Positions 1 to 40,903 are shown, counted from the first letter of the stretch. The stretch is DNA of 41,586 bases from a virus (IMGVR_UViG_2778261450_000006:1-41586); one strand, 5' to 3'. The notes: generated by a model not told the origin, from the sequence alone. Numbers and translations are program-made.

Positions 1-1719
1 ATGATTTTTAGGGATAGCTTGAGAGTATTACCTTATGGTCGAGTAGATAATGATTTCTTCCAGATAGAAGAAAGACGTTCATGGAATGCAGGGCGATATT
101 ATTGGTCTAATAGAAGGATTTTTGGTTATATTGGAATTACTCAATCCAGTAATAAAGAGCTGAAAGATAAGTCGGGGAGAGAGGGATTCATAAGAAACCA
201 GGCTGCAAGAGAACTGAAAACTATTATATCTAATTTGTTAACTGAACTTGCTGATAGATTTTTTGGTTCACGTTCTGATGACCGTAAAGAGCTTTTAGAA
301 CAAGTTAAGCGTGAAAAAGAGTTAAGAAAATCTGCTCAACAACAAGCTCGAAAATCAACACAAAAAAGTTTTTCAGAAGCTTTGAAGAATCAGACACCAG
401 TTCTTGATGCTTCCTTGGAGGCTGTTAAAAGGCTGAAAACTAAGCTTGATAAAACTGATGGTTCGTTAGATTTAAACTATCTTAAAATTATAGACAGTGA
501 TCTTACAAACTTAGATGCGTTGCGCAGTGAAATTAAAACGCCTATCAAACCTCCAAAACTTGGAATGTATGAAGAGAAATATAGAGACTACAGAGATAAA
601 TTTAATGAGTTCTCTGCGTATATTCTACAAATGAAGTTAGCAATTAATAAACTTGATTCTGAATTAAATAAACTTGAGCCTTCATTGTCAGCGAAAAATC
701 ACCTTGAAAAAAATCAAGGTATTATTAATTCTAAACTAACTAAGTTTAATAACACGATAGAGGAGAAGATACATTCTCTTTTAAAAAAATGGGCCGATGA
801 AATAAAGGTTGATCGAAGTGATTATTATGCTAAAACTATATCAGTTGTTGATTCAATAGATAATGATTCACAAATTGAAAATGTGTTTAATTTGCTCGAT
901 AGTTTATATGTTGAGTCAGTTGATACCCTAACTTTCAAATATCAATCAATAATAAAAGGTCTCGATAGATTATTTGAAGGTATAAACTTAGATTCAGCAT
1001 TCTCATTATCTGAAGAAGAACGCTCATATTTTGAAGAAAAAGCTAAAAGTTTAAACGCGCTTGCACAGTTAGGTATTAGTGTTGAGATAATATCTCATGA
1101 ACTTGAAGAAATGGATTCTATGGTAACCAGAGGACTAAACTCTCTTCCTACTTCTGTAAAAGAACACCCTGGTTTTTCATTGGCGTTAAATGCTCACAGA
1201 TCGCTTACTCAACAAATACGTTTCTTATCACCTTTGAAAATATCAGGTTATCAATCCAGGCAGAGAATAACTGGAAAAAATATCATGGATTATGTCCTGA
1301 AGTTCTTTGGGGAGCGTTTCGAACGGCAACGAATAACTATTGAATTTAGTGAAGAGTTTAAGCAAATCGCAATAACAGATATACCATCAAGGATCTATCC
1401 TGTTTTTACTAATATTATCAACAATGCAATGTATTGGGTCAGTCTGTCAAATAATAGGCTCATAAAGATTGGTTTTGTGAATTCTTTGGTTATCATAGCA
1501 AATTCTGGTCCGGCAATTGATACCGATGATATCCCGCGACTATTTGAACTATTTTATAGCAAAAGAGCAAATGGACATGGGGTAGGTCTGTATCTATGTC
1601 GAGAAAACCTTGCTGTTGCACATCATAAAATATGGTATTCAGAACCTGATGAAGGCGATAACTATTTAATAAAAGATGGCGCTAATTTTGTGATCCAGTT
1701 CAATGGAGTGGAGTTCTAA
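1..1719 (+). CDS. Histidine-kinase-like protein (HisKA-like H-box plus GHKL ATPase domain); N-terminal ~380 aa charged and coiled-coil-like; possibly 5'-truncated by window edge
   Basis: ORF begins at base 1. C-terminal third carries H-box-like ISHELEEM, N-box FTNIINNAMYW, G1-like ANSGPAIDTDD and G2 GHGVGLYLCRENL. Stop overlaps start region of the downstream gene. AT-rich. Confidence 0.6.
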   Translation: MIFRDSLRVLPYGRVDNDFFQIEERRSWNAGRYYWSNRRIFGYIGITQSSNKELKDKSGREGFIRNQAARELKTIISNLLTELADRFFGSRSDDRKELLEQVKREKELRKSAQQQARKSTQKSFSEALKNQTPVLDASLEAVKRLKTKLDKTDGSLDLNYLKIIDSDLTNLDALRSEIKTPIKPPKLGMYEEKYRDYRDKFNEFSAYILQMKLAINKLDSELNKLEPSLSAKNHLEKNQGIINSKLTKFNNTIEEKIHSLLKKWADEIKVDRSDYYAKTISVVDSIDNDSQIENVFNLLDSLYVESVDTLTFKYQSIIKGLDRLFEGINLDSAFSLSEEERSYFEEKAKSLNALAQLGISVEIISHELEEMDSMVTRGLNSLPTSVKEHPGFSLALNAHRSLTQQIRFLSPLKISGYQSRQRITGKNIMDYVLKFFGERFERQRITIEFSEEFKQIAITDIPSRIYPVFTNIINNAMYWVSLSNNRLIKIGFVNSLVIIANSGPAIDTDDIPRLFELFYSKRANGHGVGLYLCRENLAVAHHKIWYSEPDEGDNYLIKDGANFVIQFNGVEF

Positions 1720-1720
1720 T

Positions 1721-3469
1721 ATGACAGTGGCAAATTATAATTCTCTTGTCCAGAAAACTTTCTGCGAAAATGCAATTCGTTCCGTTGTCATGATTGATGA
1801 CGATTTTCTGACGTATTCTGAATCAATCAGGGCGTTGAATAACGAAGTTGATTTAGACTACAACAAAATTGACTCATCTAAACGAGCCGCTACTCTTGAG
1901 AGCTTTTTTCAATCTAAAAATATGATTTGTGATGTTGACAATGGTTCTGTTAATTTCGATGTGGATCGGATTAGAAAATCAGATCTTATTATTGTAGATT
2001 ATCATCTTGATAATAATGCACCTGATAAAACACTTAAACTATTACAAGATTTGAAAGACTCCGATCATTTAAATATGATTGTAATATATACTAGAGAGAA
2101 TTTAGAAACGGTTTGGATGCAGATATCATCGACTCTCAAAGGTGCTCTGGATATCAACAGCTTGATCATTGACTACGATAATGAAGATGTCCAAAGTTAT
2201 TGGGAAGACGTTGTATTACCGAACTTAAATGATAATGGTAATAAAGCTCTCACAAGAGATGAAACAATAGCCTATATTAAAGACAGTAAGCCTTGTAGAA
2301 GAATTAAAAGATTAATACATGATGATGCTGTGTTGGAGGATCAAAAGGATAAAAACTTCATTGCAAAAATGATTGCAGAATATGCTGTGTCTAGAAATGC
2401 AATTATTTCTAGCAACACATCTGGCAATGTCATTCGGGGTGATGAAAGCGGAGTAAAATGGATTCAATGTGGTAATATCTTTGTCTCCCTATTTCATAAG
2501 GTTCAAGATGATCATGAAAACGATGGAGATAGGATTTGGCAAACTCTCAATGATTCTCTCATTGAATGGAAACCATCTTATTATCAGTTAATAAAATCTG
2601 AAATTCAGAATGCAATCGAAGCTGAGGCTTTATCTTTTGTAAATCATTTGGCTAACGATCATTACGGTCAAGCTGCGTGGTTAAATGAGATATTAAAATC
2701 AGACTCGCCTGATATTAGATGTAGAAATATTGACTTTGTATTTGGTAATTTATCAGAAGAGCTTTATCAAAGACTTAAAAATAATAATACGCTGGATGAA
2801 TTTATCAAAAGTGTTTTTGATAGCTATTCAAATGAATACGCTAACAGCGGAGTTGCTGCATTGCTCCAATATTGCTCTTCAAAAATGGATCTGCCATCAA
2901 ATAATGATACTTATCACGAAATGTATCATGCTTTAAATATGAATTTGTCTTCAAAGAATTTTGAAGATGGTCATATTTCTACTGGCACTATTTTCTTTGA
3001 TACAGAGTCGAACAAATGGTATTTATGTGTATCTGCGGCATGTGATTTGGTTCCTACTCAGGGTAACGACCCTCACCATGTAAGATTAAGTCCGCACAGG
3101 CTCATTAAAGTTCTGGAGCTTTTTAACGCCAGTCAGAGTAAAGCATTGCCATTTGCTGAACATTCGAAATATATATATGTAATGCATAAAAATCAAAGAA
3201 AATATCTCTCTATTTTCGAAGGGGATAAAACGCTTCCTGTTGTTGATTATATGGTGGTGTTGAATCATGGAACAACAGTTGATGGCGAAGAAAAAAATAT
3301 TATTTCTGCCGTGTTTTTAAGTAATATGGATGGCAACGTGCAAAATGTTCCTGTCCGACTCAAACTTAAATCTCAACTGAGAACTGGTTATGCAGAAAGA
3401 TATCAGGCTATAGCGTCTCAGTATAGCTCAAGGATTGGTGTGGATTATGTATCAATGATGCTACCATAA
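1721..3469 (+). CDS. Receiver (REC) domain protein with ~450-aa C-terminal domain of unknown function (candidate effector)
   Basis: ATG at 1721 preceded by GGAGTGGAG (track ORF starts 1703). N-terminus has REC-like pattern VVMIDDD ... DLIIVDYHLDN ... NMIVIYT. No HTH or other recognisable output domain. Coupled to upstream kinase-like gene. Confidence 0.6.
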   Translation: MTVANYNSLVQKTFCENAIRSVVMIDDDFLTYSESIRALNNEVDLDYNKIDSSKRAATLESFFQSKNMICDVDNGSVNFDVDRIRKSDLIIVDYHLDNNAPDKTLKLLQDLKDSDHLNMIVIYTRENLETVWMQISSTLKGALDINSLIIDYDNEDVQSYWEDVVLPNLNDNGNKALTRDETIAYIKDSKPCRRIKRLIHDDAVLEDQKDKNFIAKMIAEYAVSRNAIISSNTSGNVIRGDESGVKWIQCGNIFVSLFHKVQDDHENDGDRIWQTLNDSLIEWKPSYYQLIKSEIQNAIEAEALSFVNHLANDHYGQAAWLNEILKSDSPDIRCRNIDFVFGNLSEELYQRLKNNNTLDEFIKSVFDSYSNEYANSGVAALLQYCSSKMDLPSNNDTYHEMYHALNMNLSSKNFEDGHISTGTIFFDTESNKWYLCVSAACDLVPTQGNDPHHVRLSPHRLIKVLELFNASQSKALPFAEHSKYIYVMHKNQRKYLSIFEGDKTLPVVDYMVVLNHGTTVDGEEKNIISAVFLSNMDGNVQNVPVRLKLKSQLRTGYAERYQAIASQYSSRIGVDYVSMMLP

Positions 3470-3540
3470 TTATTATATTTTAGGCGTGGTGATTTTTTTT
3501 CGCCATGCCTATTTTATATTTATCATCACAATGATGTTGT

Positions 3541-3957
3541 TTATTTTTGTTTAAGTCTTCTAAGCTTCATGCATTCTAATGAGAATAATAATAGAGTTGT
3601 GCTGTATATAAAGCCAGAGTTAGTTAATAACTTTAAATTTAATGCTTCAGGATTTTCACTGAGAAAGTGAAAGGCATAAACTAAGTATACAGCTAAAGTA
3701 GCCGTTCCAATTGTTGGTCCAATATCGCCTTGATCATGAGGTTCAAGGTTTACATTGAACTTGAAGATTAGCCATTCAAATCCCCAAGTAAAAAAAACAA
3801 CTAATATCATGGCTGCGAATAATTTCGCGATGTTATCTGCTGATGGATTCATCAGAACAGATTGTTTCTGAAAAAATTCACAAAGTGAGAGTCCGAAAAA
3901 AATAAAAAAAAGTGGTCTGGAACTAAATTTTTCAAAAACTTTGAATAGGGTTTCCAT
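3541..3957 (-). CDS. Small multi-pass membrane protein (hypothetical)
   Basis: 138-aa ORF with several hydrophobic stretches (LFFIFFGLSL, AAMILVVFFTWGFEWLIF, TATLAVYLVYAF, FIYSTTLLLFSL). Lies directly downstream of the P4-type integrase on the same strand. Confidence 0.45.
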   Translation of the reverse strand: METLFKVFEKFSSRPLFFIFFGLSLCEFFQKQSVLMNPSADNIAKLFAAMILVVFFTWGFEWLIFKFNVNLEPHDQGDIGPTIGTATLAVYLVYAFHFLSENPEALNLKLLTNSGFIYSTTLLLFSLECMKLRRLKQK

Positions 3958-3995
3958 TTTCTTTACCTTCAGGATTATATTAGCTATTCTGATAC

Positions 3996-5225
3996 TTAGG
4001 CTACCAGAGCATTTGATCTTTGAGCTTGAACGTAATCACTCCACCATTGCATCAAACTCTGTCGCTCTATCAGATATTCTGCACGATTGTATGCTGCGAT
4101 AATTTCATCTTTTTTCGAGTGGGCAAGCGCTGCCTCAAGAACTTCAGCTCTGAATTTACCAGACTCCTCTGCCGCTGTTCGTGCAATAGAACGCATACCG
4201 TGAGCTACAAGCTCGCCTCCGAACCCCATTCGGATGATAGCTGCGTTGGCTGTTTGTTCATGCATATGATTAAGAGGCGCTTTTATGCTGGGGAAAACCC
4301 ATTCTCTATGCCCACTTATTGATTTCATTAATTCAAGGATGCGCAAAGCTTCTTTACTCAAAGGAACTTTGTGAAGCTTTTTCATTTTCATGAAATCAGC
4401 AGGAATGTTCCAAATGCTGTTGGTTGTATCAATATCAGACCACCTTGCGCGAACGGCTTCACCCGGACGAACCCATGTCAACAATTGCCATTCAATTAGC
4501 ATACGTGTTTCCAACCGGATTGACGCATTCGTCAAAGATTCCATAAACCTTGGCAATTCGCTTGGGGGAAGGGCAGGCATATTTTGCTTTTTTGGTTTAC
4601 TGAATCTTTGACCAAGGTTGTCAGCCGGGTTGAACTCAATAAGTTCTTCAGTAGCTGCCCACCGGAAGATTTCATTCAGACGTGAAATGATACGGCGTAG
4701 AGTTTCCAATACGCCTCGTTGCTCAATAGGATCAAGGTGTTGTTTTAAGAGCTTAGGTCGGATCTCATTGATAGGGACATTACCCAGACCGGGAAAGACA
4801 TTTCTCTCTAAGCTGCGCCAGATGTCTGCTGCATGGTCTTGTGAGATACCTGATGTCTTTACCTTCTCATCTAACCATTTCCGCGCTACGGCTTGGAGAG
4901 TGTGCTCAGTAGCACTCTTTAATGCCTTCGCCTTATCGTTGTTATGGATTTGGGGATCAACACCATTTGCCAGAAAGGAGAGATATTCATCACGTAAGGC
5001 TCTGGCTCTTGCAAGGGTAAGGTGAGGATATGTCCCAAGGCTCATTTTGGTTCTTTTCTTGCTCACTGGTACTGCATACCTGAAATACCAATTTTTCTTG
5101 CCTCCTTTCGCCAAAGGAGCGATTCGTAGAATCAGACCATCACCGTCAAACAAGTTGATTTCTTTATCGGCTGGCTTGGTGCTTTTGATTTCAGTGTCAG
5201 TGAGCTTCTTAGCGATTTTTGCCAT
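3996..5225 (-). CDS. intA: P4-type tyrosine integrase (IntA/CP4-57-like)
   Basis: N-terminus MAKIAKKLTDTEIKSTKPADKEINLFDGDGL and C-terminal HGMRS...AHS...AYNRAEYL..QWW motifs typical of P4-family integrases. Start chosen at the internal ATG (5223-5225) with GAGGG RBS; track ORF extends to 5267. Adjacent to the 45-bp ssrA 3' fragment. Confidence 0.85.
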   Translation of the reverse strand: MAKIAKKLTDTEIKSTKPADKEINLFDGDGLILRIAPLAKGGKKNWYFRYAVPVSKKRTKMSLGTYPHLTLARARALRDEYLSFLANGVDPQIHNNDKAKALKSATEHTLQAVARKWLDEKVKTSGISQDHAADIWRSLERNVFPGLGNVPINEIRPKLLKQHLDPIEQRGVLETLRRIISRLNEIFRWAATEELIEFNPADNLGQRFSKPKKQNMPALPPSELPRFMESLTNASIRLETRMLIEWQLLTWVRPGEAVRARWSDIDTTNSIWNIPADFMKMKKLHKVPLSKEALRILELMKSISGHREWVFPSIKAPLNHMHEQTANAAIIRMGFGGELVAHGMRSIARTAAEESGKFRAEVLEAALAHSKKDEIIAAYNRAEYLIERQSLMQWWSDYVQAQRSNALVA

Positions 5226-5390
5226 TTTGGGACCCTCGGTTTTTGGACCCTTCTTAATGGGTCCCATTCAGGGTGCCATAACTCGTAGTTCTCAGCAATT
5301 CTCACTGGACGACAATAGACGTAAAAAAGCCCGCAGAGCTTGTGCTGTGTGGGCTTAGTAGACTTCATTGAACTTCAAACAACTAAAAAG

Positions 5391-5435
5391 TGGTGGAGCT
5401 GGCGGGAGTTGAACCCGCGTCCGAAATTCCTACAT
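5391..5435. repeat. 45-bp direct repeat identical to the 3' end of ssrA (att core; prophage attR and original island att)
   Basis: tggtggagctggcgggagttgaacccgcgtccgaaattcctacat is identical to 40527-40571; flanks diverge on both sides. Confidence 0.9.
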
Positions 5436-5528
5436 ACCATTTTCACTATAACAAAAACATTAACTTGCGTTTAAAATCATCAAGTTAGTATTATCTTATG
5501 TTTGTCCGTTTTACTCATTTTTAATGCT

Positions 5529-5548
5529 CTGTCGCCAATCTGTCGCCA
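5529..5548 (+). repeat. Two direct copies of CTGTCGCCA 11 bp apart (candidate integrase arm-type sites)
   Basis: ctgtcgcca at 5529-5537 and 5540-5548; the same 9-10-mer recurs as an inverted pair at 40430-40468 near the other prophage end. Confidence 0.4.
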
Positions 5549-5550
5549 CA

Positions 5551-6201
5551 TTATCCGCTGCTTGAGTTGAAATCTGTGGGTTTACGGAGATTAGATCTTA
5601 TGGTTTTTTCAGCGATACGAATAGTCGAAAATTTATGCAGGTTCATCAGTGCTATACAAATCCCAAGTGCAAAAAAGTAGCTGGACATTCCTAATCTTTG
5701 CATATCAGTAAGTTTATTAATTTTCTCTAAAATATGTTGGGTTACTAATCCTTCGTATACAAAAGGTATGGAAGTTATAAAACCGCCAATAAAATAGAAT
5801 GTTAAGCTTATCAGCTTTATAGATTTTCTATATATCCAAAAGCGATATCTTTTTTTTGTCCATTTAAATATTTGTTTTTCACTACTAATAGAAATTAGTT
5901 TTTGACACTTGCTATAGTTATCAATGTCATTAACTGGATCGTTAACACCTAAAAGAATCTCTCTCTGTTCTGGAGTTAGGTTCTTATCTTTTGTTATTGC
6001 AGCAATACCATAATTATATGCAACTTTCTTGATTTTGGGATCTTCAGTATTCTTATATAGATTGTATGCAAACTCGCTAATGTTTTTGCGCGAGTTGAAA
6101 ATCTTATCTTTGGGGAAAACCCAGCCGGATCTTACCGCGAGCATCTGTATGATCGGGGTAATTATCGCGACAGAATACTTAATTATCTCGTTTATGTTCA
6201 T
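5551..6201 (-). CDS. AT-rich cargo protein with C-terminal transmembrane segments (hypothetical; moron between attR and int)
   Basis: 216-aa ORF, lysine-rich and AT-rich, hydrophobic segments LISLTFYFIGGFITSIPFVY and MSSYFFALGICIALM. Not part of the canonical P2/186 gene set at this position. Confidence 0.5.
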   Translation of the reverse strand: MNINEIIKYSVAIITPIIQMLAVRSGWVFPKDKIFNSRKNISEFAYNLYKNTEDPKIKKVAYNYGIAAITKDKNLTPEQREILLGVNDPVNDIDNYSKCQKLISISSEKQIFKWTKKRYRFWIYRKSIKLISLTFYFIGGFITSIPFVYEGLVTQHILEKINKLTDMQRLGMSSYFFALGICIALMNLHKFSTIRIAEKTIRSNLRKPTDFNSSSG

Positions 6202-6215
6202 GATCCATTGTTTAC

Positions 6216-7232
6216 TTAAATTAAGTTATAAAGAGGGTTTTTTGTTACTGCATCCTCCAGGTGGTCTGGAGAGAAGTGTGCATAAATCATCGTCATTTTA
6301 ATATCTGAGTGCCCTAAAATATCACGTAAAACGAGTATGTTCCCACCGTTCATCATAAAATGGCTGGCAAATGTATGGCGCAGGACGTGGGTGCATTGGC
6401 CTTCCGGTAGTTCAATACCGGCCCGTTTTACCGCCCGTTCAAAGGCTTTTCTGCATGGTGTGAATAATTTCCCTCGGTTTTTGGGTAGCTCGTTGTACAG
6501 ATCCTGAGATATCGGTACGGTACGGTTTTTTTTACCCTTGGTCTTTGTATAGGTAATCCGGTATTTCGATAGTTGATGGCCCTGCAGGTTTTCAGCTTCA
6601 CTCCAACGAGCACCGGTTGCTAGGCATATTTTTGCAATCATTAGCAGACTGGGGCTTTGAGAATCAGCACAGGCATCCAGCAGACGTTTAATTTCCTCCG
6701 GGGTTAGGAACGCCAGTTCACCCTCCGTAATTTTAAATGTTGGAAGCCCGGCAAGCGGGTTGGGGGCTGACCAGTGGCCCAGCTTTTTCAGTGTACCAAA
6801 AACAGATGATAGGTTGCGCTGTTCAAGGTTTACCGTGCGGGGCTTAACGGGTGACATGAACGAGCCGTCTTCATTTTGGACCTCCCCCTTTAATCTGGCT
6901 TCCCGATATTTTGTGAAATCACCTGCTGTCAGCTCAGAGGCGATGGGATCGCCTAGACCATTACAGATAATTCTAAGTTTCGCCATCAGGCGTTTGGGGT
7001 CTGCGAGTGTTTGACCATATAGGGAATACCACTGCTCAATCACTTCTGATAATCGCCGCCGATCTTCCTTCTCACCAAGCCATGGCTTTTTGTTTACTTC
7101 GTTCATGGTGAAGTTTTCGAATGCTATGGCTTCGCCTTTCGTGGCAAATTGCTTACGCACGCGCTTGCCATTGCGTCCATTGGGATAGCACTCACACAAC
7201 CATTTTCCGTTCGGCTGTTTTCTGATGGTCAT
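6216..7232 (-). CDS. int: P2/186-family tyrosine integrase
   Basis: 338 aa; GRNGKRVRKQF...AFE N-terminus and C-terminal LATGARWSEA ... HVLRHTFASHFMMNGG ... LGHSDIKMTMIYAHF catalytic region, as in P2 Int. Confidence 0.9.
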   Translation of the reverse strand: MTIRKQPNGKWLCECYPNGRNGKRVRKQFATKGEAIAFENFTMNEVNKKPWLGEKEDRRRLSEVIEQWYSLYGQTLADPKRLMAKLRIICNGLGDPIASELTAGDFTKYREARLKGEVQNEDGSFMSPVKPRTVNLEQRNLSSVFGTLKKLGHWSAPNPLAGLPTFKITEGELAFLTPEEIKRLLDACADSQSPSLLMIAKICLATGARWSEAENLQGHQLSKYRITYTKTKGKKNRTVPISQDLYNELPKNRGKLFTPCRKAFERAVKRAGIELPEGQCTHVLRHTFASHFMMNGGNILVLRDILGHSDIKMTMIYAHFSPDHLEDAVTKNPLYNLI

Positions 7233-7233
7233 A

Positions 7234-7866
7234 TCAAAGGCTCTTAATGATTTTCAGTGCACGGCCTACTACCTCAATGTCATCCAGGCCACACTCAAAC
7301 GATGAATCATCCTGATGCACTACTAATCTGTTTCCCGGGAGTCGAGTCAATTTAACAATGCTTTTTATCCCGTCGATATCGACTAACCACATACCATTCA
7401 CTGGTGGTGTTTGGTTGCGATCTATTAAATAAGAATCACCAGAAGTAGTCACCAGCAGTAGGTTGCTTGAGTCTGAGGGGAGTATGCTGCTATCAATGAT
7501 TGCTTTTCCAGCATCGACCAATAAACCACCGTTGAGAGTCGCCTTGTCAATTTCAGGAGATACTAGTTCAGAAAGAGGTACAACCTTGCTGGAGTTCACG
7601 GAATTGATATTTTTTTTAGGTTCAATGTTTGGACCTGGCTCCCCCTGTCCGGTGGTTAGCCACAGTAAAGAAACTCCTGTTTCCAAGGCGCACTGAATCA
7701 CCCACTCTGCAGGAAAACTATCTCTTAAGTATCTGTTTGCCATGGTGCTTTTTGATGCGCCTAAGTGATCGCAAAGTTGCTGTCTGGACTTGAAATCATA
7801 GGCTGCCATTAGTCTATGGATAGCTTCTCTTCCCCCTGTATTCTCTCCAGCCTTTACCTGTATCAT
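7234..7866 (-). CDS. cI: CI-type immunity repressor (186 CI-like)
   Basis: 210 aa directly upstream of int on the same strand, divergent from apl/cII; N-terminal motif QCALETGVSLLWLTTGQG resembles 186 CI. Confidence 0.8.
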   Translation of the reverse strand: MIQVKAGENTGGREAIHRLMAAYDFKSRQQLCDHLGASKSTMANRYLRDSFPAEWVIQCALETGVSLLWLTTGQGEPGPNIEPKKNINSVNSSKVVPLSELVSPEIDKATLNGGLLVDAGKAIIDSSILPSDSSNLLLVTTSGDSYLIDRNQTPPVNGMWLVDIDGIKSIVKLTRLPGNRLVVHQDDSSFECGLDDIEVVGRALKIIKSL

Positions 7867-15535: not shown

Positions 15536-16450
15536 ATGCCATACCAATTGGTAGAGCTTAGCCCCGTAGCTAACGATCTTGAACAGTTAGGAACCAAAGA
15601 GAAGTTTTGGTTCTATTTCTCCGATGACACTGTAAATTTGCAGTTGTTTAAGTACTCTAGGCCAGGTACTGGCGAGCATTGGTCTGAAAAGTGTGCTGCT
15701 GAGTTATGTCATTTGCTTAACATTCCACATGCTAGCTATGATTTGGCGCGATACAATGGTCGATTCGGTGTGGTGACTCAGAATATCATTCCATCTGGTT
15801 TCCGGATGGTAATGGGAAATGAAGTGCTTCACAGTTCGACATTCGATTATCCTGGGCCTTTACAAGCCGGGGAAAAGCCGGTAAGGGTCAGAGAACACAC
15901 TGTCACAAGGGTATTGGGTTGTTTGGATAGGGAATCTATCAAGCCTCCTCCGAGTGTATATGATCTAACCGGGCTAAATGCAGCAGATGTATTTTGTGGA
16001 TATTTGATGCTCGATGCACTTGTGAGTAATCAAGATCGCCATCATGAAAATTGGGCGATCATGCTTAACAATGAAACTGGTGAGCAGTTTTTGTGTCCAA
16101 CATACGATCATGCCGCTAGTTTAGGAAGGGAGATGTTAGATGATGAGCGTAACGAACGGCTTAATACTAAAGATAAAAATCGACAAATCCCATGTTTTGT
16201 AAGAAAAGCTCGCTCTGAGCTATTCAAAGCAAAAACTGATAAAAAGCCCTTGCTGACCGTTGAAGCATTTCAACATGCAGTTGAAGGGAGAGTTGCCGCT
16301 CGCGACCATTGGTTAGGTAAGTTGAGCGTTTTAACAGAAGATTCCATTACAGATGTGTTTAACCAAGTGCCTTCATCGTGTATATCCGACAGTGCACGTA
16401 GATTTGCAACGTTAATGGTAATGGAAAATCGCAGAAGGTTACTAGAATGA
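15536..16450 (+). CDS. HipA-like serine/threonine kinase core (lacks HipA N-terminal subdomain)
   Basis: P-loop-like GTKEKF near N-terminus and catalytic motif LDALVSNQDRHHENWAIM matching the HipA D-x-H-x-x-N region; YDHAASLG follows. AT-rich leader. Confidence 0.7.
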   Translation: MPYQLVELSPVANDLEQLGTKEKFWFYFSDDTVNLQLFKYSRPGTGEHWSEKCAAELCHLLNIPHASYDLARYNGRFGVVTQNIIPSGFRMVMGNEVLHSSTFDYPGPLQAGEKPVRVREHTVTRVLGCLDRESIKPPPSVYDLTGLNAADVFCGYLMLDALVSNQDRHHENWAIMLNNETGEQFLCPTYDHAASLGREMLDDERNERLNTKDKNRQIPCFVRKARSELFKAKTDKKPLLTVEAFQHAVEGRVAARDHWLGKLSVLTEDSITDVFNQVPSSCISDSARRFATLMVMENRRRLLE

Positions 16451-17187
16451 CTAATACAAACTCCGTTTACGTCGCATGGCAGGCACCAGATACCAGAGAC
16501 TGGCATGTTGTTGGTAACTTGCAAGAGCGCAAATCGGGGTATGTTTTCAGGTATACCAAAGGTGCTCTTAAATCTACTAAATTTACAAAGTTTAGCGGCA
16601 TGAGTGATGTTCGTGAAACTTATGTTTCGGAAGAATTGTTTCCTCTTTTTAAAAATCGCCTTTTATCACCGAGACGTCCAGAGTATCCGAGTTTCATTAA
16701 ATGGCTTGGATTTGAAGAAGATAAGGTAAATCCTATCGATATTCTTGCTCGCTCGGGAGGCTTACGAAGCACTGATCAGCTGCAGATTTTCAAAAAAATT
16801 GATGTTGATTCTGATGGTAACTTTGAGCATTTTTTCTTCTTACATGGACTTGGTTACTTAAATAGCTTAGCTAATGCTCGTGTATCTGAATTGAAACCGG
16901 GGCAAATTTTGCGTCTTTGCTTGGATCTTCAAAATGAATACGATGGGGATGCTGTTGTCGTTCGTGCAGATAAACCAGCTGAAATCGTTGGTTACTGCCC
17001 TAGGTATTTAAGTAATGATATCAAGAAGATGTTATTGGATGATCCAAAATCAATCACTTTAACGGTCGAAAAGATTAGCGATGATGCTCCTCATAACTAT
17101 CGGTTATTATGTAAATTATCAGGAGTACTAAGCCAAGCCTGTCAATCGACGCTGATTCCTCAGGATGAGTTTGAACCTATTGAGTAA
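16447..17187 (+). CDS. HIRAN-domain protein with N-terminal HipA-N/HipS-like region
   Basis: C-terminal LKPGQILRLCLDLQNEYDGDAVVVRADKPAEIVGYCPRYL matches the HIRAN signature; start overlaps kinase stop (ATGA). Confidence 0.65.
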   Translation: MTNTNSVYVAWQAPDTRDWHVVGNLQERKSGYVFRYTKGALKSTKFTKFSGMSDVRETYVSEELFPLFKNRLLSPRRPEYPSFIKWLGFEEDKVNPIDILARSGGLRSTDQLQIFKKIDVDSDGNFEHFFFLHGLGYLNSLANARVSELKPGQILRLCLDLQNEYDGDAVVVRADKPAEIVGYCPRYLSNDIKKMLLDDPKSITLTVEKISDDAPHNYRLLCKLSGVLSQACQSTLIPQDEFEPIE

Positions 17188-25613: not shown

Positions 25614-26600
25614 TTACTCTTTGTAAATTCGATCTGGCTCGTTGTACTCTATTTCTCTCAGTCGACCATTTTTAATGGTGAAATTACCTTTTTCTGATTT
25701 AAATTCCCCACCACATTTACAAGGCTTGTTATCAGAAAGAGTGTAGTTTTTTAGTATTAGTTCATCATCGTTGTCAAAGGTGGGGATTATTTTTTTAGTT
25801 TCAGCGCATTGCGTGCACTTAACTTGCAATTCCGGGAGTGTGGTACAAGCTGTAAGGCTCAGTTCGACATTCTCTGGAACAATGTAATATCCTAGCAATG
25901 GTGTCCCACGACTTTCTGAAACACCTTTGTATGTATTGGTTATGCCTCCAATAAATGCAAGGATTTCATCATACGCTTGAGTATTACGCATTGTTACCCA
26001 GCAATCTCGATCTTCATAACTATACTCACGACCTGCAACGCAAATTGCTGTAACGTAACGAAAGTCTTCTTTGTATATTTTTTTATACCTTTCGGCTTCA
26101 GTAATTCCATTTGGTGATAAGTCACTACTTAGAGCAAATATTACCGAGCGAAGTTTCTCTATTTTGTGTTGGATTAGTTTGCCTGATTCATCTTTTATTC
26201 CAGGTAAGTAACCGAATTTCTCATTAAGTTCTTTTGCACTTGAGTGTGCAGAGCTGAGTTCCGATGAACTTAATGTGGTTTTTACCTCAATGGTATATAG
26301 AACTGATTCTATTGGGAATAACCCTGTGGCACCATCGATTAATATCGGAGGGAGTATTGATTTATTGTAAATAATAATATCTATTTGAGGTGATAACTTT
26401 CCTGAATACTGTTCAATGATTTGCCCTGTGCCAATGCCAACATCTGCGGGCAAAAGAGGTCGAAATAGTTGACTTAATAATATTTCTAGAACAGCTCCCT
26501 TAACACCCTGGTGGGAAAATCCTGCAGCACTTTTGGCTTGAGCAATCGCCGATTCGACCTTCCCTCTAAGTAAAGCCTGATACTGGTTCTTATTTTTCAT
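25614..26600 (-). CDS. Cargo protein: PD-(D/E)xK-like nuclease fold with C-terminal zinc-ribbon (candidate anti-phage defence gene)
   Basis: 328-aa antisense ORF between S and V, strongly AT-rich against a GC-rich late operon. Motifs PQIDIIIYN ... ESVLYTIEVKT (D ... E-x-K) and C-terminal CTQCAETKK ... CKCGG cysteine cluster. Confidence 0.6.
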   Translation of the reverse strand: MKNKNQYQALLRGKVESAIAQAKSAAGFSHQGVKGAVLEILLSQLFRPLLPADVGIGTGQIIEQYSGKLSPQIDIIIYNKSILPPILIDGATGLFPIESVLYTIEVKTTLSSSELSSAHSSAKELNEKFGYLPGIKDESGKLIQHKIEKLRSVIFALSSDLSPNGITEAERYKKIYKEDFRYVTAICVAGREYSYEDRDCWVTMRNTQAYDEILAFIGGITNTYKGVSESRGTPLLGYYIVPENVELSLTACTTLPELQVKCTQCAETKKIIPTFDNDDELILKNYTLSDNKPCKCGGEFKSEKGNFTIKNGRLREIEYNEPDRIYKE

Positions 26601-40526: not shown

Positions 40527-40571
40527 TGGTGGAGCTGGCGGGAGTTGAACCCGCGTCCGAAATTCCTACAT
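40527..40571. repeat. 45-bp att core (3' end of ssrA), direct repeat of 5391-5435
   Basis: Exact 45/45 identity; it is the 3'-terminal 45 nt of the tmRNA gene. Confidence 0.9.
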
Positions 40572-40767
40572 CCTCGGTACTACATGCTTAGTCAGTCTTT
40601 ACATTCGCTTGCCAGCTGCGGACGGACACGCCACTAACAAACTAGCCTGATTAAGTTTTAACGCTTCAACCCCAGGCAGGGCTTCCACGCGATCTCTTTT
40701 GGGTTTGACCTCTCTTGATCCCCGTCCTAAGAGCGGAGGCTAGGGAGAGAGGGCTCTAAGCAGGTTA

Positions 40768-40800
40768 TTAAGCTGCTAAAGCGTAGTTTTCGTCGTTTGC
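40768..40800 (-). other. tmRNA tag-peptide reading frame (ANDENYALAA, stop)
   Basis: Minus-strand GCA AAC GAC GAA AAC TAC GCT TTA GCA GCT TAA inside ssrA. Confidence 0.9.
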
Positions 40801-40903
40801 GACTATTTTTTGCGGCTTTTTACGAGGCCAACCGCCCCTCGGCATGCACCTTGGGTTTCGCAAATCCCGTCGAATCCAGAATCAGCCCCAATGTGTAAAG
40901 GTA

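What the first reader, a model, noticed from the sequence alone, without database searches (positions are those of the whole stretch)
1..3957. Histidine-kinase-like ATPase and receiver-domain protein pair in an AT-rich island next to a P4-type integrase: candidate two-component-style defence module
Two translationally coupled genes. The first ends in an H-box plus GHKL ATPase domain (ISHELEEM, NIINNAMYW, GHGVGL). The second starts with a receiver domain (VVMIDDD, DLIIVDYHL, MIVIYT) followed by ~450 aa with no motif I recognise. Neither shows a DNA-binding output domain or periplasmic sensor. They sit in visibly AT-rich DNA a few hundred bp from a P4-family integrase at an ssrA att site, a classic defence-island context. 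The layout resembles Detocs-like phosphorelay defence systems, but no separate Hpt gene lies between the two and the receiver-fused domain is not an evident PNP-type effector, so it may be a distinct variant. A small membrane protein gene (3541-3957) lies convergent to the pair.
Basis: partly seen in the sequence, partly recalled or inferred. Interest (0 to 1): 0.85.

Follow-up and report, generated by a model that had tools for sequence, protein, structure and literature searches.

The report
IS3-truncated remnant of methylase-linked kinase/receiver module
The kinase-like and receiver-like gene pair is real, but it belongs to a family already described in 2021, and this E. coli copy is a leftover whose methylase partner and sensor half were deleted at an IS3 insertion, so it is probably not a working defence system.

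Summary
ORF1 (1-1719) carries a HEF_HK H-box and a HATPase_c domain. ORF2 (1721-3469) starts with a Response_reg_2 receiver. The two are one nucleotide apart, in 32-35% GC DNA, beside a P4-type integrase and a 45-nt copy of the ssrA 3' end.

The interpretation needs correcting in three ways.
- **Known family.** The pair belongs to the HEF_HK/Response_reg_2 family (PF19191/PF19192, Bellieny-Rabelo 2021). It is not a Detocs variant: there is no Hpt, no PNP and no PADLOC hit.
- **Three-gene unit.** The intact unit is an operon of C5 cytosine methylase, a ~988-aa paraMORC-type GHKL ATPase fused to a histidine-kinase core, and a ~585-aa receiver protein. A 99%-identical intact copy sits in the same ssrA island in other Enterobacterales.
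- **Truncated copy.** The ORF1 allele corresponds to codons 377-988. In identical E. coli records an IS3 abuts the break, and the methylase and the N-terminal GHKL ATPase are gone. All 561 complete E. coli genomes with this allele share the breakpoint.

The parts
1..1719 (+). 5'-truncated remnant of the paraMORC-GHKL/histidine-kinase fusion gene. It equals codons 417-988 of the intact 988-aa protein. In identical E. coli records the frame stays open 120 nt further upstream, to the IS3 end.
   Evidence: The remnant is 607/612 identical to residues 377-988 of P0006.
1066..1242 (+). HEF_HK (DHp/H-box) domain. The predicted phospho-acceptor His is H366 of the remnant (H782 of the intact protein), at nt 1096-1098 within ISHELEEM.
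   Evidence: PF19191, 26.1 bits against cutoff 24.1.
1384..1659 (+). HATPase_c catalytic ATP-binding domain of the kinase core, with N-box NIINNAMYW and G2-box GHGVGL.
   Evidence: E 1.8e-11.
1721..3469 (+). Receiver-domain protein of 582 aa (RefSeq start; an alternative ATG lies at 1703). The ORF is intact.
1775..2245 (+). Response_reg_2 receiver domain. It carries the acidic pair D26/D27, the predicted phospho-acceptor D93 (nt 1997-1999) and T124. The invariant K260 lies further downstream, after an inserted helical stretch.
2504..3466 (+). C-terminal module of about 320 aa, made of a helical bundle and a beta-rich domain. It is found only fused to Response_reg_2. Conserved motifs are HALN, TGT, WYxCVSxACDxVPxQ, RLxPxR, QLRxxYAxRxQ and RIGVD. 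Its function is unknown.
3541..3957 (-). 138-aa hydrophobic protein convergent to the pair. It is co-inherited with the module in the enterobacterial subclade. Its function is unknown.
3996..5267 (-). P4-type tyrosine integrase of the ssrA island (the RefSeq start gives 409 aa, 3996-5225).
5391..5435 (.). 45-nt copy of the ssrA 3' end. It marks the att boundary between the integrase island and the P2-like prophage, and is repeated exactly at 40527-40571.

Best explanation
**What it is (shown).** Window 1-3957 is the surviving right-hand end of an ssrA-integrated, mobilisable island. The island's cargo was a three-gene, restriction-modification-associated phosphorelay module:
- a C5 cytosine DNA methylase;
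- a ~988-aa cytoplasmic protein with an N-terminal paraMORC-type GHKL ATPase (HATPase_c_3), a long coiled coil and a complete histidine-kinase core (HEF_HK H-box + HATPase_c);
- a ~585-aa protein with an N-terminal Response_reg_2 receiver and a family-specific C-terminal module of about 320 aa.

In the E. coli lineage of this window, homology to the intact gene starts at codon 377, directly at the end of an IS3 element. The methylase, the GHKL sensor/ATPase half, the operon's native upstream region and the rest of the island are gone. What remains is a kinase-core remnant, an intact receiver protein, a small membrane protein and the integrase.

**How the intact module probably works (inferred).** The methylase marks host DNA. 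The MORC-like GHKL module engages DNA or another infection cue and uses ATP. This switches on autophosphorylation of the H-box His. The phosphoryl group passes to the receiver Asp (D93), which releases or activates the C-terminal module as the output, either growth arrest/restriction or regulation of a linked nuclease.

**Status of this copy (inferred).** The remnant most likely has no defence function. It lacks its native upstream region, the sensor ATPase and the methylase. In the related Ambrosia system, a mutation in the N-terminal region of the kinase-like protein AbrB (N40A; that region aligns to the GHKL part of the intact protein here) abolishes defence.
For: **Domains.**

**Intact counterpart.**
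- A 99%-identical 988-aa protein carries HATPase_c_3 at its N-terminus.
- It sits in the same island, next to smpB, the same integrase and the same 138-aa gene. A C5 DNA_methylase gene overlaps its start by 20 nt.

**Break point.**
- In two E. coli genomes 100% identical to window 1-5400, IS3 ends 121 nt before window base 1.
- The frame is open right up to IS3.

**Census of 5426 complete E. coli genomes.**
- 561 carry this allele at 95% identity or more; every listed match starts at nt 1127/1128 of the intact gene, and none of the 766 matching genomes covers 80% of it.
- 555 match the methylase + 5' region only over its last 74 nt.
- 485 hold the exact IS3 junction.

**Conservation of the three-gene core.**
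- It recurs at 45%, 36% and 25% receiver-protein identity in unrelated contexts.
- It also occurs as an intact, divergent four-gene version with HNH_2 in E. coli E138. About 205 complete genomes give the same short distant match, but only E138 was inspected.

**Receiver fold and catalytic residues.** The fold and the invariant D26, D27, D93, T124 and K260 are shown.

**Ambrosia.**
- AbrB aligns colinearly with the intact protein.
- Mutating conserved residues in any predicted functional domain abolished defence; the panel includes N40A in AbrB and D60A in AbrC (bioRxiv 10.1101/2025.09.30.679545).

**Family description.** The family and its link to restriction-modification systems are described in PMC8011034.
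Against: - Both remnant ORFs are still open in hundreds of genomes. The receiver gene differs from the intact allele by 12 synonymous and only 1 non-synonymous change. These counts mostly reflect divergence before the truncation, so they cannot show selection after it.
- The kinase core (DHp + CA) is complete and could in principle still phosphorylate the receiver if it is transcribed from IS3 or read-through.
- Expression was not testable here.
- The window itself does not contain the IS3. Its presence upstream is inferred from identical public genomes.
- The mechanism of the intact module is therefore inference by analogy.
Confidence: 0.8

Rival explanations
1. The two remaining genes still form a working, sensor-less two-component defence or toxin module. 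This is. The truncated kinase core, translated from the internal ATG, phosphorylates the receiver protein, which acts without any methylase.
For: - DHp and CA domains, the H-box His and the receiver catalytic residues are all intact.
- A GGAG motif lies just upstream of the ORF2 start, one nucleotide after the ORF1 stop.
- Both ORFs are open in 561 E. coli genomes.
- The 2021 paper reports a 'group 2' architecture without HATPase_c_3 in 34 of 222 proteins.
Against: - The N-terminal start is an IS3 breakpoint, not a natural architecture.
- The native upstream region and the methylase are deleted.
- An AbrB N-terminal mutant (N40A) loses defence in Ambrosia.
- Copies are at least 99.4% identical, so open ORFs may only reflect a recent origin.
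- The kinase remnant shows 5 non-synonymous and 3 synonymous changes against the intact allele (pN/pS 0.45), compared with 0.02 for the receiver gene.
- At least some 'group 2' proteins look like broken genes. The 572-aa K. pneumoniae protein is the downstream part of a frameshifted gene.
Confidence: 0.12
2. In the intact family the receiver protein is a transcription factor, not an effector. Once phosphorylated, it switches on the linked methylase or nuclease genes. This is the model proposed for Ambrosia AbrC.
For: - The Ambrosia authors report a wHTH in AbrC.
- They see infection-induced expression of reporters placed in the operon.
- Some family members have a downstream HNH_2 or Vsr gene that could be the regulated nuclease.
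Against: - AbrC is a 209-aa protein that does not match Response_reg_2.
- The minimal conserved module has no nuclease gene to regulate.
- The invariant Cys, Asp, Arg, Gln and Tyr residues in a beta-rich C-terminal domain look more like an active or binding site than a DNA-reading helix.
Confidence: 0.15
3. A divergent Detocs-type system: kinase senses phage, a receiver-fused enzyme depletes a nucleotide, and the Hpt buffer protein has been lost.
For: The only shared logic is a cytoplasmic HK plus a receiver fused to a non-DNA-binding domain in a defence island.
Against: - No Hpt (PF01627) and no PNP/nucleosidase domain were found in any ORF.
- PADLOC gave no significant hit.
- The kinase belongs to the paraMORC/HEF_HK lineage and is tied to a DNA methylase.
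- Hits to the C-terminal module sit at the same position in ~560-680-aa proteins, and all eight full-length ones scanned carry Response_reg_2.
Confidence: 0.02

Closest known systems
HEF_HK / Response_reg_2 'two-component-system-like' pairs (Pfam PF19191 + PF19192; Bellieny-Rabelo, Pretorius & Moleleki 2021, PMC8011034)
   Same: - Both Pfam models hit above their curated cutoffs.
- The genes are adjacent.
- The kinase-like protein is soluble.
- The intact allele has the majority 'group 1' architecture, HATPase_c_3 + HEF_HK + HATPase_c, with a C5 methylase immediately upstream.
- That paper used an E. coli protein as a representative.
   Different: - This copy lacks HATPase_c_3 and the methylase because of a break at an IS3 junction.
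- It would be scored as the paper's 'group 2', but it is a truncation rather than a natural architecture.
- The family has no experimentally shown function.
Ambrosia defence system of Pseudomonas aeruginosa (AbrR/A/B/C/D; bioRxiv 10.1101/2025.09.30.679545)
   Same: - It is a methylase-linked operon with a HATPase_c_3...HATPase_c kinase-like protein (AbrB) followed by a receiver protein.
- AbrB aligns colinearly with the intact homologue here: residues 8-125 (E 6e-11) and 411-479 (E 4e-6), the latter lying partly inside the window's remnant.
- Mutants in the AbrB N-terminal region (N40A) and at the AbrC receiver Asp (D60A) lose defence.
   Different: - Ambrosia has an N6-adenine methylase, an XRE regulator and an HNH nuclease.
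- AbrB is 747 aa.
- AbrC is a 209-aa short receiver protein that does not match Response_reg_2 and lacks the ~320-aa C-terminal module.
- The module here uses a C5 methylase and, in this island, has no HNH gene.
paraMORC/MORC GHKL ATPases of restriction-modification systems (Iyer, Abhiman & Aravind 2008, PMC2292703)
   Same: - The intact protein has an N-terminal GHKL ATPase of the HATPase_c_3 type.
- It is encoded next to a cytosine methylase on mobile DNA.
   Different: - The described paraMORC1-5 families carry S5 plus nuclease, TIR or other C-terminal domains.
- They pair with helicases and endonucleases, not with a histidine-kinase core and a receiver partner.
- The GHKL part is absent from the window.
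Detocs (DtcA/B/C)
   Same: Cytoplasmic kinase plus a receiver fused to a non-DNA-binding output, in defence islands.
   Different: - There is no Hpt and no PNP effector.
- The kinase lineage is different.
- The module is linked to a methylase.
- There is no PADLOC match.

Membership tests
HEF_HK/Response_reg_2 TCS-like system (PMC8011034) | Receiver protein matching PF19192 | tested here: met
   E 3.7e-31, 109 bits against cutoff 27.
HEF_HK/Response_reg_2 TCS-like system (PMC8011034) | Partner with a HEF_HK H-box (PF19191) and a C-terminal HATPase_c | tested here: met
   HEF_HK 26.1 bits against cutoff 24.1; HATPase_c 44.9 bits against cutoff 26.4.
HEF_HK/Response_reg_2 TCS-like system (PMC8011034) | The two genes lie adjacent on the same strand | tested here: met
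   stop at 1717-1719, start at 1721.
HEF_HK/Response_reg_2 TCS-like system (PMC8011034) | N-terminal HATPase_c_3 (paraMORC-type GHKL) in the kinase-like protein (83% of the family) | tested here: not met
   Absent from ORF1. Present at residues 28-137 of the 99%-identical intact protein. Lost at the IS3 junction.
HEF_HK/Response_reg_2 TCS-like system (PMC8011034) | Neighbouring R-M genes, typically a C5 cytosine methylase upstream | tested here: not met
   IS3 and a ygaQ remnant lie upstream in identical E. coli genomes. The methylase is present in the intact island and in divergent loci.
HEF_HK/Response_reg_2 TCS-like system (PMC8011034) | His-to-Asp phosphotransfer | not testable with these tools
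   Only the conserved His (ISHELEEM) and Asp (D93) are seen.
Ambrosia | AbrB-like HATPase_c_3...HATPase_c protein | tested here: inconclusive
   Only the first 399 aa of AbrB were available. They align with the intact homologue at E 6e-11 and 4e-6. The window copy retains only the second stretch.
Ambrosia | Short AbrC-type receiver protein (~209 aa) | tested here: not met
   ORF2 is 582 aa and matches PF19192. AbrC gives only a sub-threshold PF00072 hit and no PF19192 hit.
Ambrosia | N6 methylase, XRE regulator and HNH nuclease in the operon | tested here: not met
   None is present in the window or in the intact island L002. An HNH_2 gene occurs in a divergent E. coli version.
Detocs | Separate Hpt protein (DtcB) | tested here: not met
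   No Hpt hit in any ORF of 1-6201. No PADLOC hit.
Detocs | Receiver fused to a PNP-type nucleosidase (DtcC) | tested here: not met
   The C-terminal module has no Pfam hit and no PNP-like structural match.
Canonical housekeeping two-component system | Membrane sensor kinase, DNA-binding response regulator, core-genome location | tested here: not met
   No TM segment or sensor domain and no HTH were found. The pair is present in only 561 of 5426 E. coli genomes, at an ssrA island.
CcdB/MazF toxin fold (for the ORF2 C-terminal beta domain) | Structural and sequence similarity to CcdB/MazF/Kid | tested here: inconclusive

The most novel reading that the evidence does not exclude
The kinase-core remnant and the intact receiver protein may still be a working pair in about 10% of E. 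coli. On this reading the receiver protein's family-specific C-terminal module (a possible CcdB/MazF-like barrel) is a phosphorylation-gated toxin or effector that no longer depends on a methylase or a DNA-sensing GHKL domain. That would be a degenerate R-M-type phosphorelay re-used as a stand-alone abortive-infection or addiction module.
Probability: 0.1. Interest if true: 0.6.

Novelty: already known. Interest (0 to 1): 0.27.

Why it matters
**For the window.** The module should be annotated as a truncated remnant. It is the wrong copy to clone for a defence assay.

**For the family.** Three points are useful.
- The conserved unit is three genes (C5 methylase, GHKL-ATPase/HK fusion, receiver + unknown module), not two. 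It moves as a self-contained cassette on ssrA islands, Tn7-like transposons and other elements.
- At least some 'N-terminally short' family members counted as a separate architecture in the 2021 survey look like broken genes.
- The family's output domain has no recognisable relative. How a MORC-like ATPase, a His-Asp phosphorelay and DNA methylation combine therefore remains an open mechanistic question. Intact alleles are available for testing: a 99%-identical one in Serratia, Salmonella and Klebsiella, and a divergent one in E. coli E138.

Tried and rejected
- **PADLOC and NCBIfam on the five ORFs of 1-6201.** Nothing specific came back for ORF1 or ORF2.
- **MADS.** I suspected from memory that it might match. 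Its preprint mentions a histidine kinase only as a hotspot boundary gene, so I dropped it.
- **V. cholerae paraMORC3/Shedu VcSduA.** It has a different architecture, GHKL plus a DUF4263 nuclease.
- **PDB sequence-profile search with the full receiver-protein alignment.** No hit below E 0.2.
- **Foldseek against PDB with the C-terminal model.** No significant match.
- **afdb50.** The library was not available.
- **HMM search of 1.84 billion representatives with the C-terminal module.** I hoped to find it fused to other domains. Among the 150 hits listed, the match sits at the same C-terminal position in ~560-680-aa proteins, and all eight full-length ones scanned carry Response_reg_2, so there was no modularity clue.
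- **pN/pS of the remnant against the intact allele.** Too few changes to decide on selection after the truncation.
- **P0128, a 453-aa 'partial' protein.** It is labelled partial and matches the first 453 residues of ORF2 apart from one substitution, so I did not treat it as a second truncation.
- **Literature searches for an experimental test of PF19191/PF19192 proteins.** None found.


Full report
The window opens with two same-strand ORFs, 1-1719 (572 aa) and 1703/1721-3469 (588/582 aa).

- ORF1 matches Pfam HEF_HK (PF19191, aa 356-414, 26.1 bits against a curated cutoff of 24.1) and HATPase_c (aa 462-553, E 1.8e-11). ORF2 matches Response_reg_2 (PF19192, E 3.7e-31).
- The ORF1 stop (1717-1719) is one nucleotide from the ORF2 ATG (1721), with GGAGTGGAG just upstream.
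- The region has 32-35% GC, against 45-61% in most of the window.
- A 138-aa hydrophobic ORF lies at 3541-3957 (-), followed by a P4-type integrase at 3996-5267 (-).

**2. The ssrA context is a tandem array.** ssrA lies at 40527-40889 (-). Its 3'-terminal 45 nt are repeated exactly at 5391-5435, about 125 nt beyond the integrase start.

The 35 kb between the repeats is a P2-like prophage, with an integrase at 6216-7232 and a CI-like repressor at 7234-7866. The integrase island was therefore at ssrA first, and the prophage sits between it and the gene. In E. coli 15A, which lacks the prophage, the same integrase abuts ssrA directly.

**3. The family is already described.** PF19191 and PF19192 were defined by Bellieny-Rabelo et al. 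(2021, PMC8011034).

- The two gene families are adjacent in 91.6% of 644 loci.
- The kinase-like protein is soluble.
- 83% of kinase-like proteins carry an N-terminal HATPase_c_3 (paraMORC-type GHKL).
- The loci are enriched in R-M genes, above all C5 cytosine methylases, with Vsr or HNH_2 genes often downstream.
- An E. coli protein served as a structural representative.

RefSeq already names the two genes 'ATP-binding protein' and 'response regulator receiver domain'.

**4. This copy is truncated.**

- In E. coli genomes 100% identical to window 1-5400, the CDS is annotated at exactly window 1-1719 and an IS3 element lies just upstream.
- IS3 ends 121 nt before window base 1, and the reading frame is open across those 120 nt right up to the IS end.
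- Translated from the IS3 boundary, the remnant is 607/612 identical to residues 377-988 of a 988-aa protein found in Serratia, Salmonella and Klebsiella. That protein has HATPase_c_3 at 28-137, HEF_HK at 772-830 and HATPase_c at 878-969.
- The intact protein is encoded in the same island: smpB, integrase, the same 138-aa gene, a 582-aa receiver gene, the 988-aa gene, and then a 402-aa C5 DNA_methylase gene that overlaps its start by 20 nt. Further left lie a relaxase and further tyrosine recombinases.
- In E. coli all of that is replaced by IS3 next to a ygaQ remnant.

Census of 5426 complete E. coli genomes:

| Query | Result |
|---|---|
| Intact kinase-like gene | 561 genomes carry this allele at 95% identity or more; every listed match starts at nt 1127/1128; none of the 766 matching genomes covers 80% of the gene |
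| Methylase + 5' region | 555 genomes match, only over the last 74 nt |
| IS3 junction | 485 genomes hold the exact junction |

An 83%-identity allele in K. pneumoniae keeps the methylase but has a frameshift at codon ~310 of the kinase-like gene. That is an independent break, unless it is a sequencing error.

**5. The functional unit is three genes.** The trio of C5 methylase, a ~980-992-aa HATPase_c_3...HATPase_c protein and a ~583-607-aa Response_reg_2 protein recurs in unrelated settings.

| Locus | Receiver-protein identity | Setting |
|---|---|---|
| L008 | 45% | Acinetobacter Tn7-like cargo, with an HTH_3 gene beside the methylase |
| L006 | 36% | between housekeeping genes |
| L007 | 25% | metagenomic contig |
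| L009 | 24% (kinase-like protein 37% identical end to end) | E. coli E138, followed by an HNH_2 nuclease |

About 205 complete E. coli genomes give the same short distant match as E138, but only E138 was inspected. The 138-aa membrane protein follows the module in the enterobacterial subclade (81% identical in K. pneumoniae, where no integrase was called next to it). It is absent from the divergent loci.

**6. The receiver protein's output module is unresolved.** Residues about 262-582 have no Pfam, NCBIfam or PADLOC hit and no PDB sequence relative.

- Modelled alone (pLDDT 83, pTM 0.76), they form a helical bundle plus a beta-rich domain.
- Foldseek finds nothing significant. hhalign against MazF and CcdB gives probability below 1%.
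- An exhaustive HMM search finds the module in 662 clusters. Among the 150 hits listed, the match sits at the same C-terminal position in ~560-680-aa proteins. All eight full-length hits scanned carry Response_reg_2.
- Invariant residues suggest an active or binding site: C436, C441, D442, Q552, R554, Y557, R571, G573 and D575.
- No HTH was seen.

**7. Closest tested system.** Ambrosia (bioRxiv 10.1101/2025.09.30.679545) is a P. aeruginosa defence operon. It encodes an XRE regulator, an N6 methylase, AbrB (747 aa, with HATPase_c_3 and HATPase_c), AbrC (a 209-aa receiver protein) and an HNH nuclease.

Mutating conserved residues in any predicted functional domain abolished defence. The mutant panel includes N40A in AbrB and D60A in AbrC. 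The available 399 aa of AbrB align colinearly with the intact homologue here, at residues 8-125 (E 6e-11) and 411-479 (E 4e-6).

AbrC does not match Response_reg_2 and lacks the large C-terminal module. Ambrosia is therefore a sister system, not the same family of receiver protein. Detocs is excluded: there is no Hpt, no PNP and no PADLOC hit.

**8. Mechanism.**

- *Shown:* the domain content, the conserved His and Asp, the operon structure, the break at the IS3 junction, and the distribution.
- *Inferred for the intact module:* the methylase marks self DNA. The MORC-like GHKL ATPase senses DNA or infection. It drives autophosphorylation of the H-box His and transfer to D93. That in turn activates the C-terminal module, either as an effector or as a regulator of a linked nuclease.
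- *Weak supporting argument:* one event removed both the methylase and the GHKL half, and hosts tolerated it. In K. pneumoniae the kinase-like gene is broken while the methylase survives. Both patterns are what one expects if the GHKL-kinase arm is needed for a harmful, restriction-like output.
- *Inferred for this window:* the remnant lacks its native upstream region, sensor and methylase, so it is most likely inert. Whether it is expressed from IS3 read-through could not be tested.

**9. Verdict.** The object is a decayed copy of a known but mechanistically unsolved family. It is of low interest as a finding in this window. It has moderate value as a pointer to intact alleles worth testing.

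Noticed in passing
window 5436-40526 (repeats at 5391-5435 and 40527-40571): A P2-like prophage of about 35 kb is flanked by exact 45-nt direct repeats of the ssrA 3' end. It lies between the integrase island and ssrA, so the locus is a tandem ssrA array. E. coli A8 carries a different, lambdoid-looking prophage at the same site.
   Followed up: partly
window 15536-16450 (+) and 16447-17187 (+): This two-gene pair inside the prophage matches the PADLOC candidate system PDC-M03 (M03A E 2e-122, M03B E 3e-93). It sits in an AT-richer stretch and is likely prophage-borne defence cargo.
   Followed up: no
window 25614-26600 (-): A lone minus-strand gene sits in a GC dip of the prophage. Its 328-aa product matches the PD_DExK and NucC-type endonuclease models (E 7e-32 and 7e-14).
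   Followed up: no
window 5551-6201 (-): A 216-aa hydrophobic ORF lies right after the prophage attachment repeat and next to the prophage integrase. It has no Pfam, PADLOC or NCBIfam match. It may be a moron.
   Followed up: no
L009 5693-12885 (E. coli E138, NZ_AP022351.1): This is an intact, divergent four-gene version of the module: C5 methylase, a 989-aa GHKL/HK protein, a 607-aa Response_reg_2 protein and an HNH_2 nuclease. It lies on a mobile element with ArdC. About 205 complete E. coli genomes give the same short distant match, but only E138 was inspected. It would be a better E. coli candidate for experiments than the window's remnant.
   Followed up: partly
L005 8734-11719 (K. pneumoniae CP141543.1): The 83%-identity allele has a frameshift at codon ~310 of the kinase-like gene, giving 314-aa and 572-aa pieces. 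The methylase is intact and a type I R-M system lies next door. Several 572-aa database proteins from other genera may be similar broken genes. This bears on the 'group 2' architecture of PMC8011034.
   Followed up: partly
L008 1-10104 (Acinetobacter, BKLQ01000004.1): The three-gene module rides as cargo next to TnsC/TnsD/TnsE-like genes of a Tn7-like transposon. An HTH_3 gene lies beside a convergently oriented methylase and may be a C-protein-like controller.
   Followed up: no
ORF2 residues 569-582 (window 3425-3466): The extreme C-terminus carries the invariant motif RIGVD (R571, G573, D575). It is modelled with pLDDT below 50 in the full-length model. It may be a docking peptide or a strand that orders only in a complex.
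   Followed up: no
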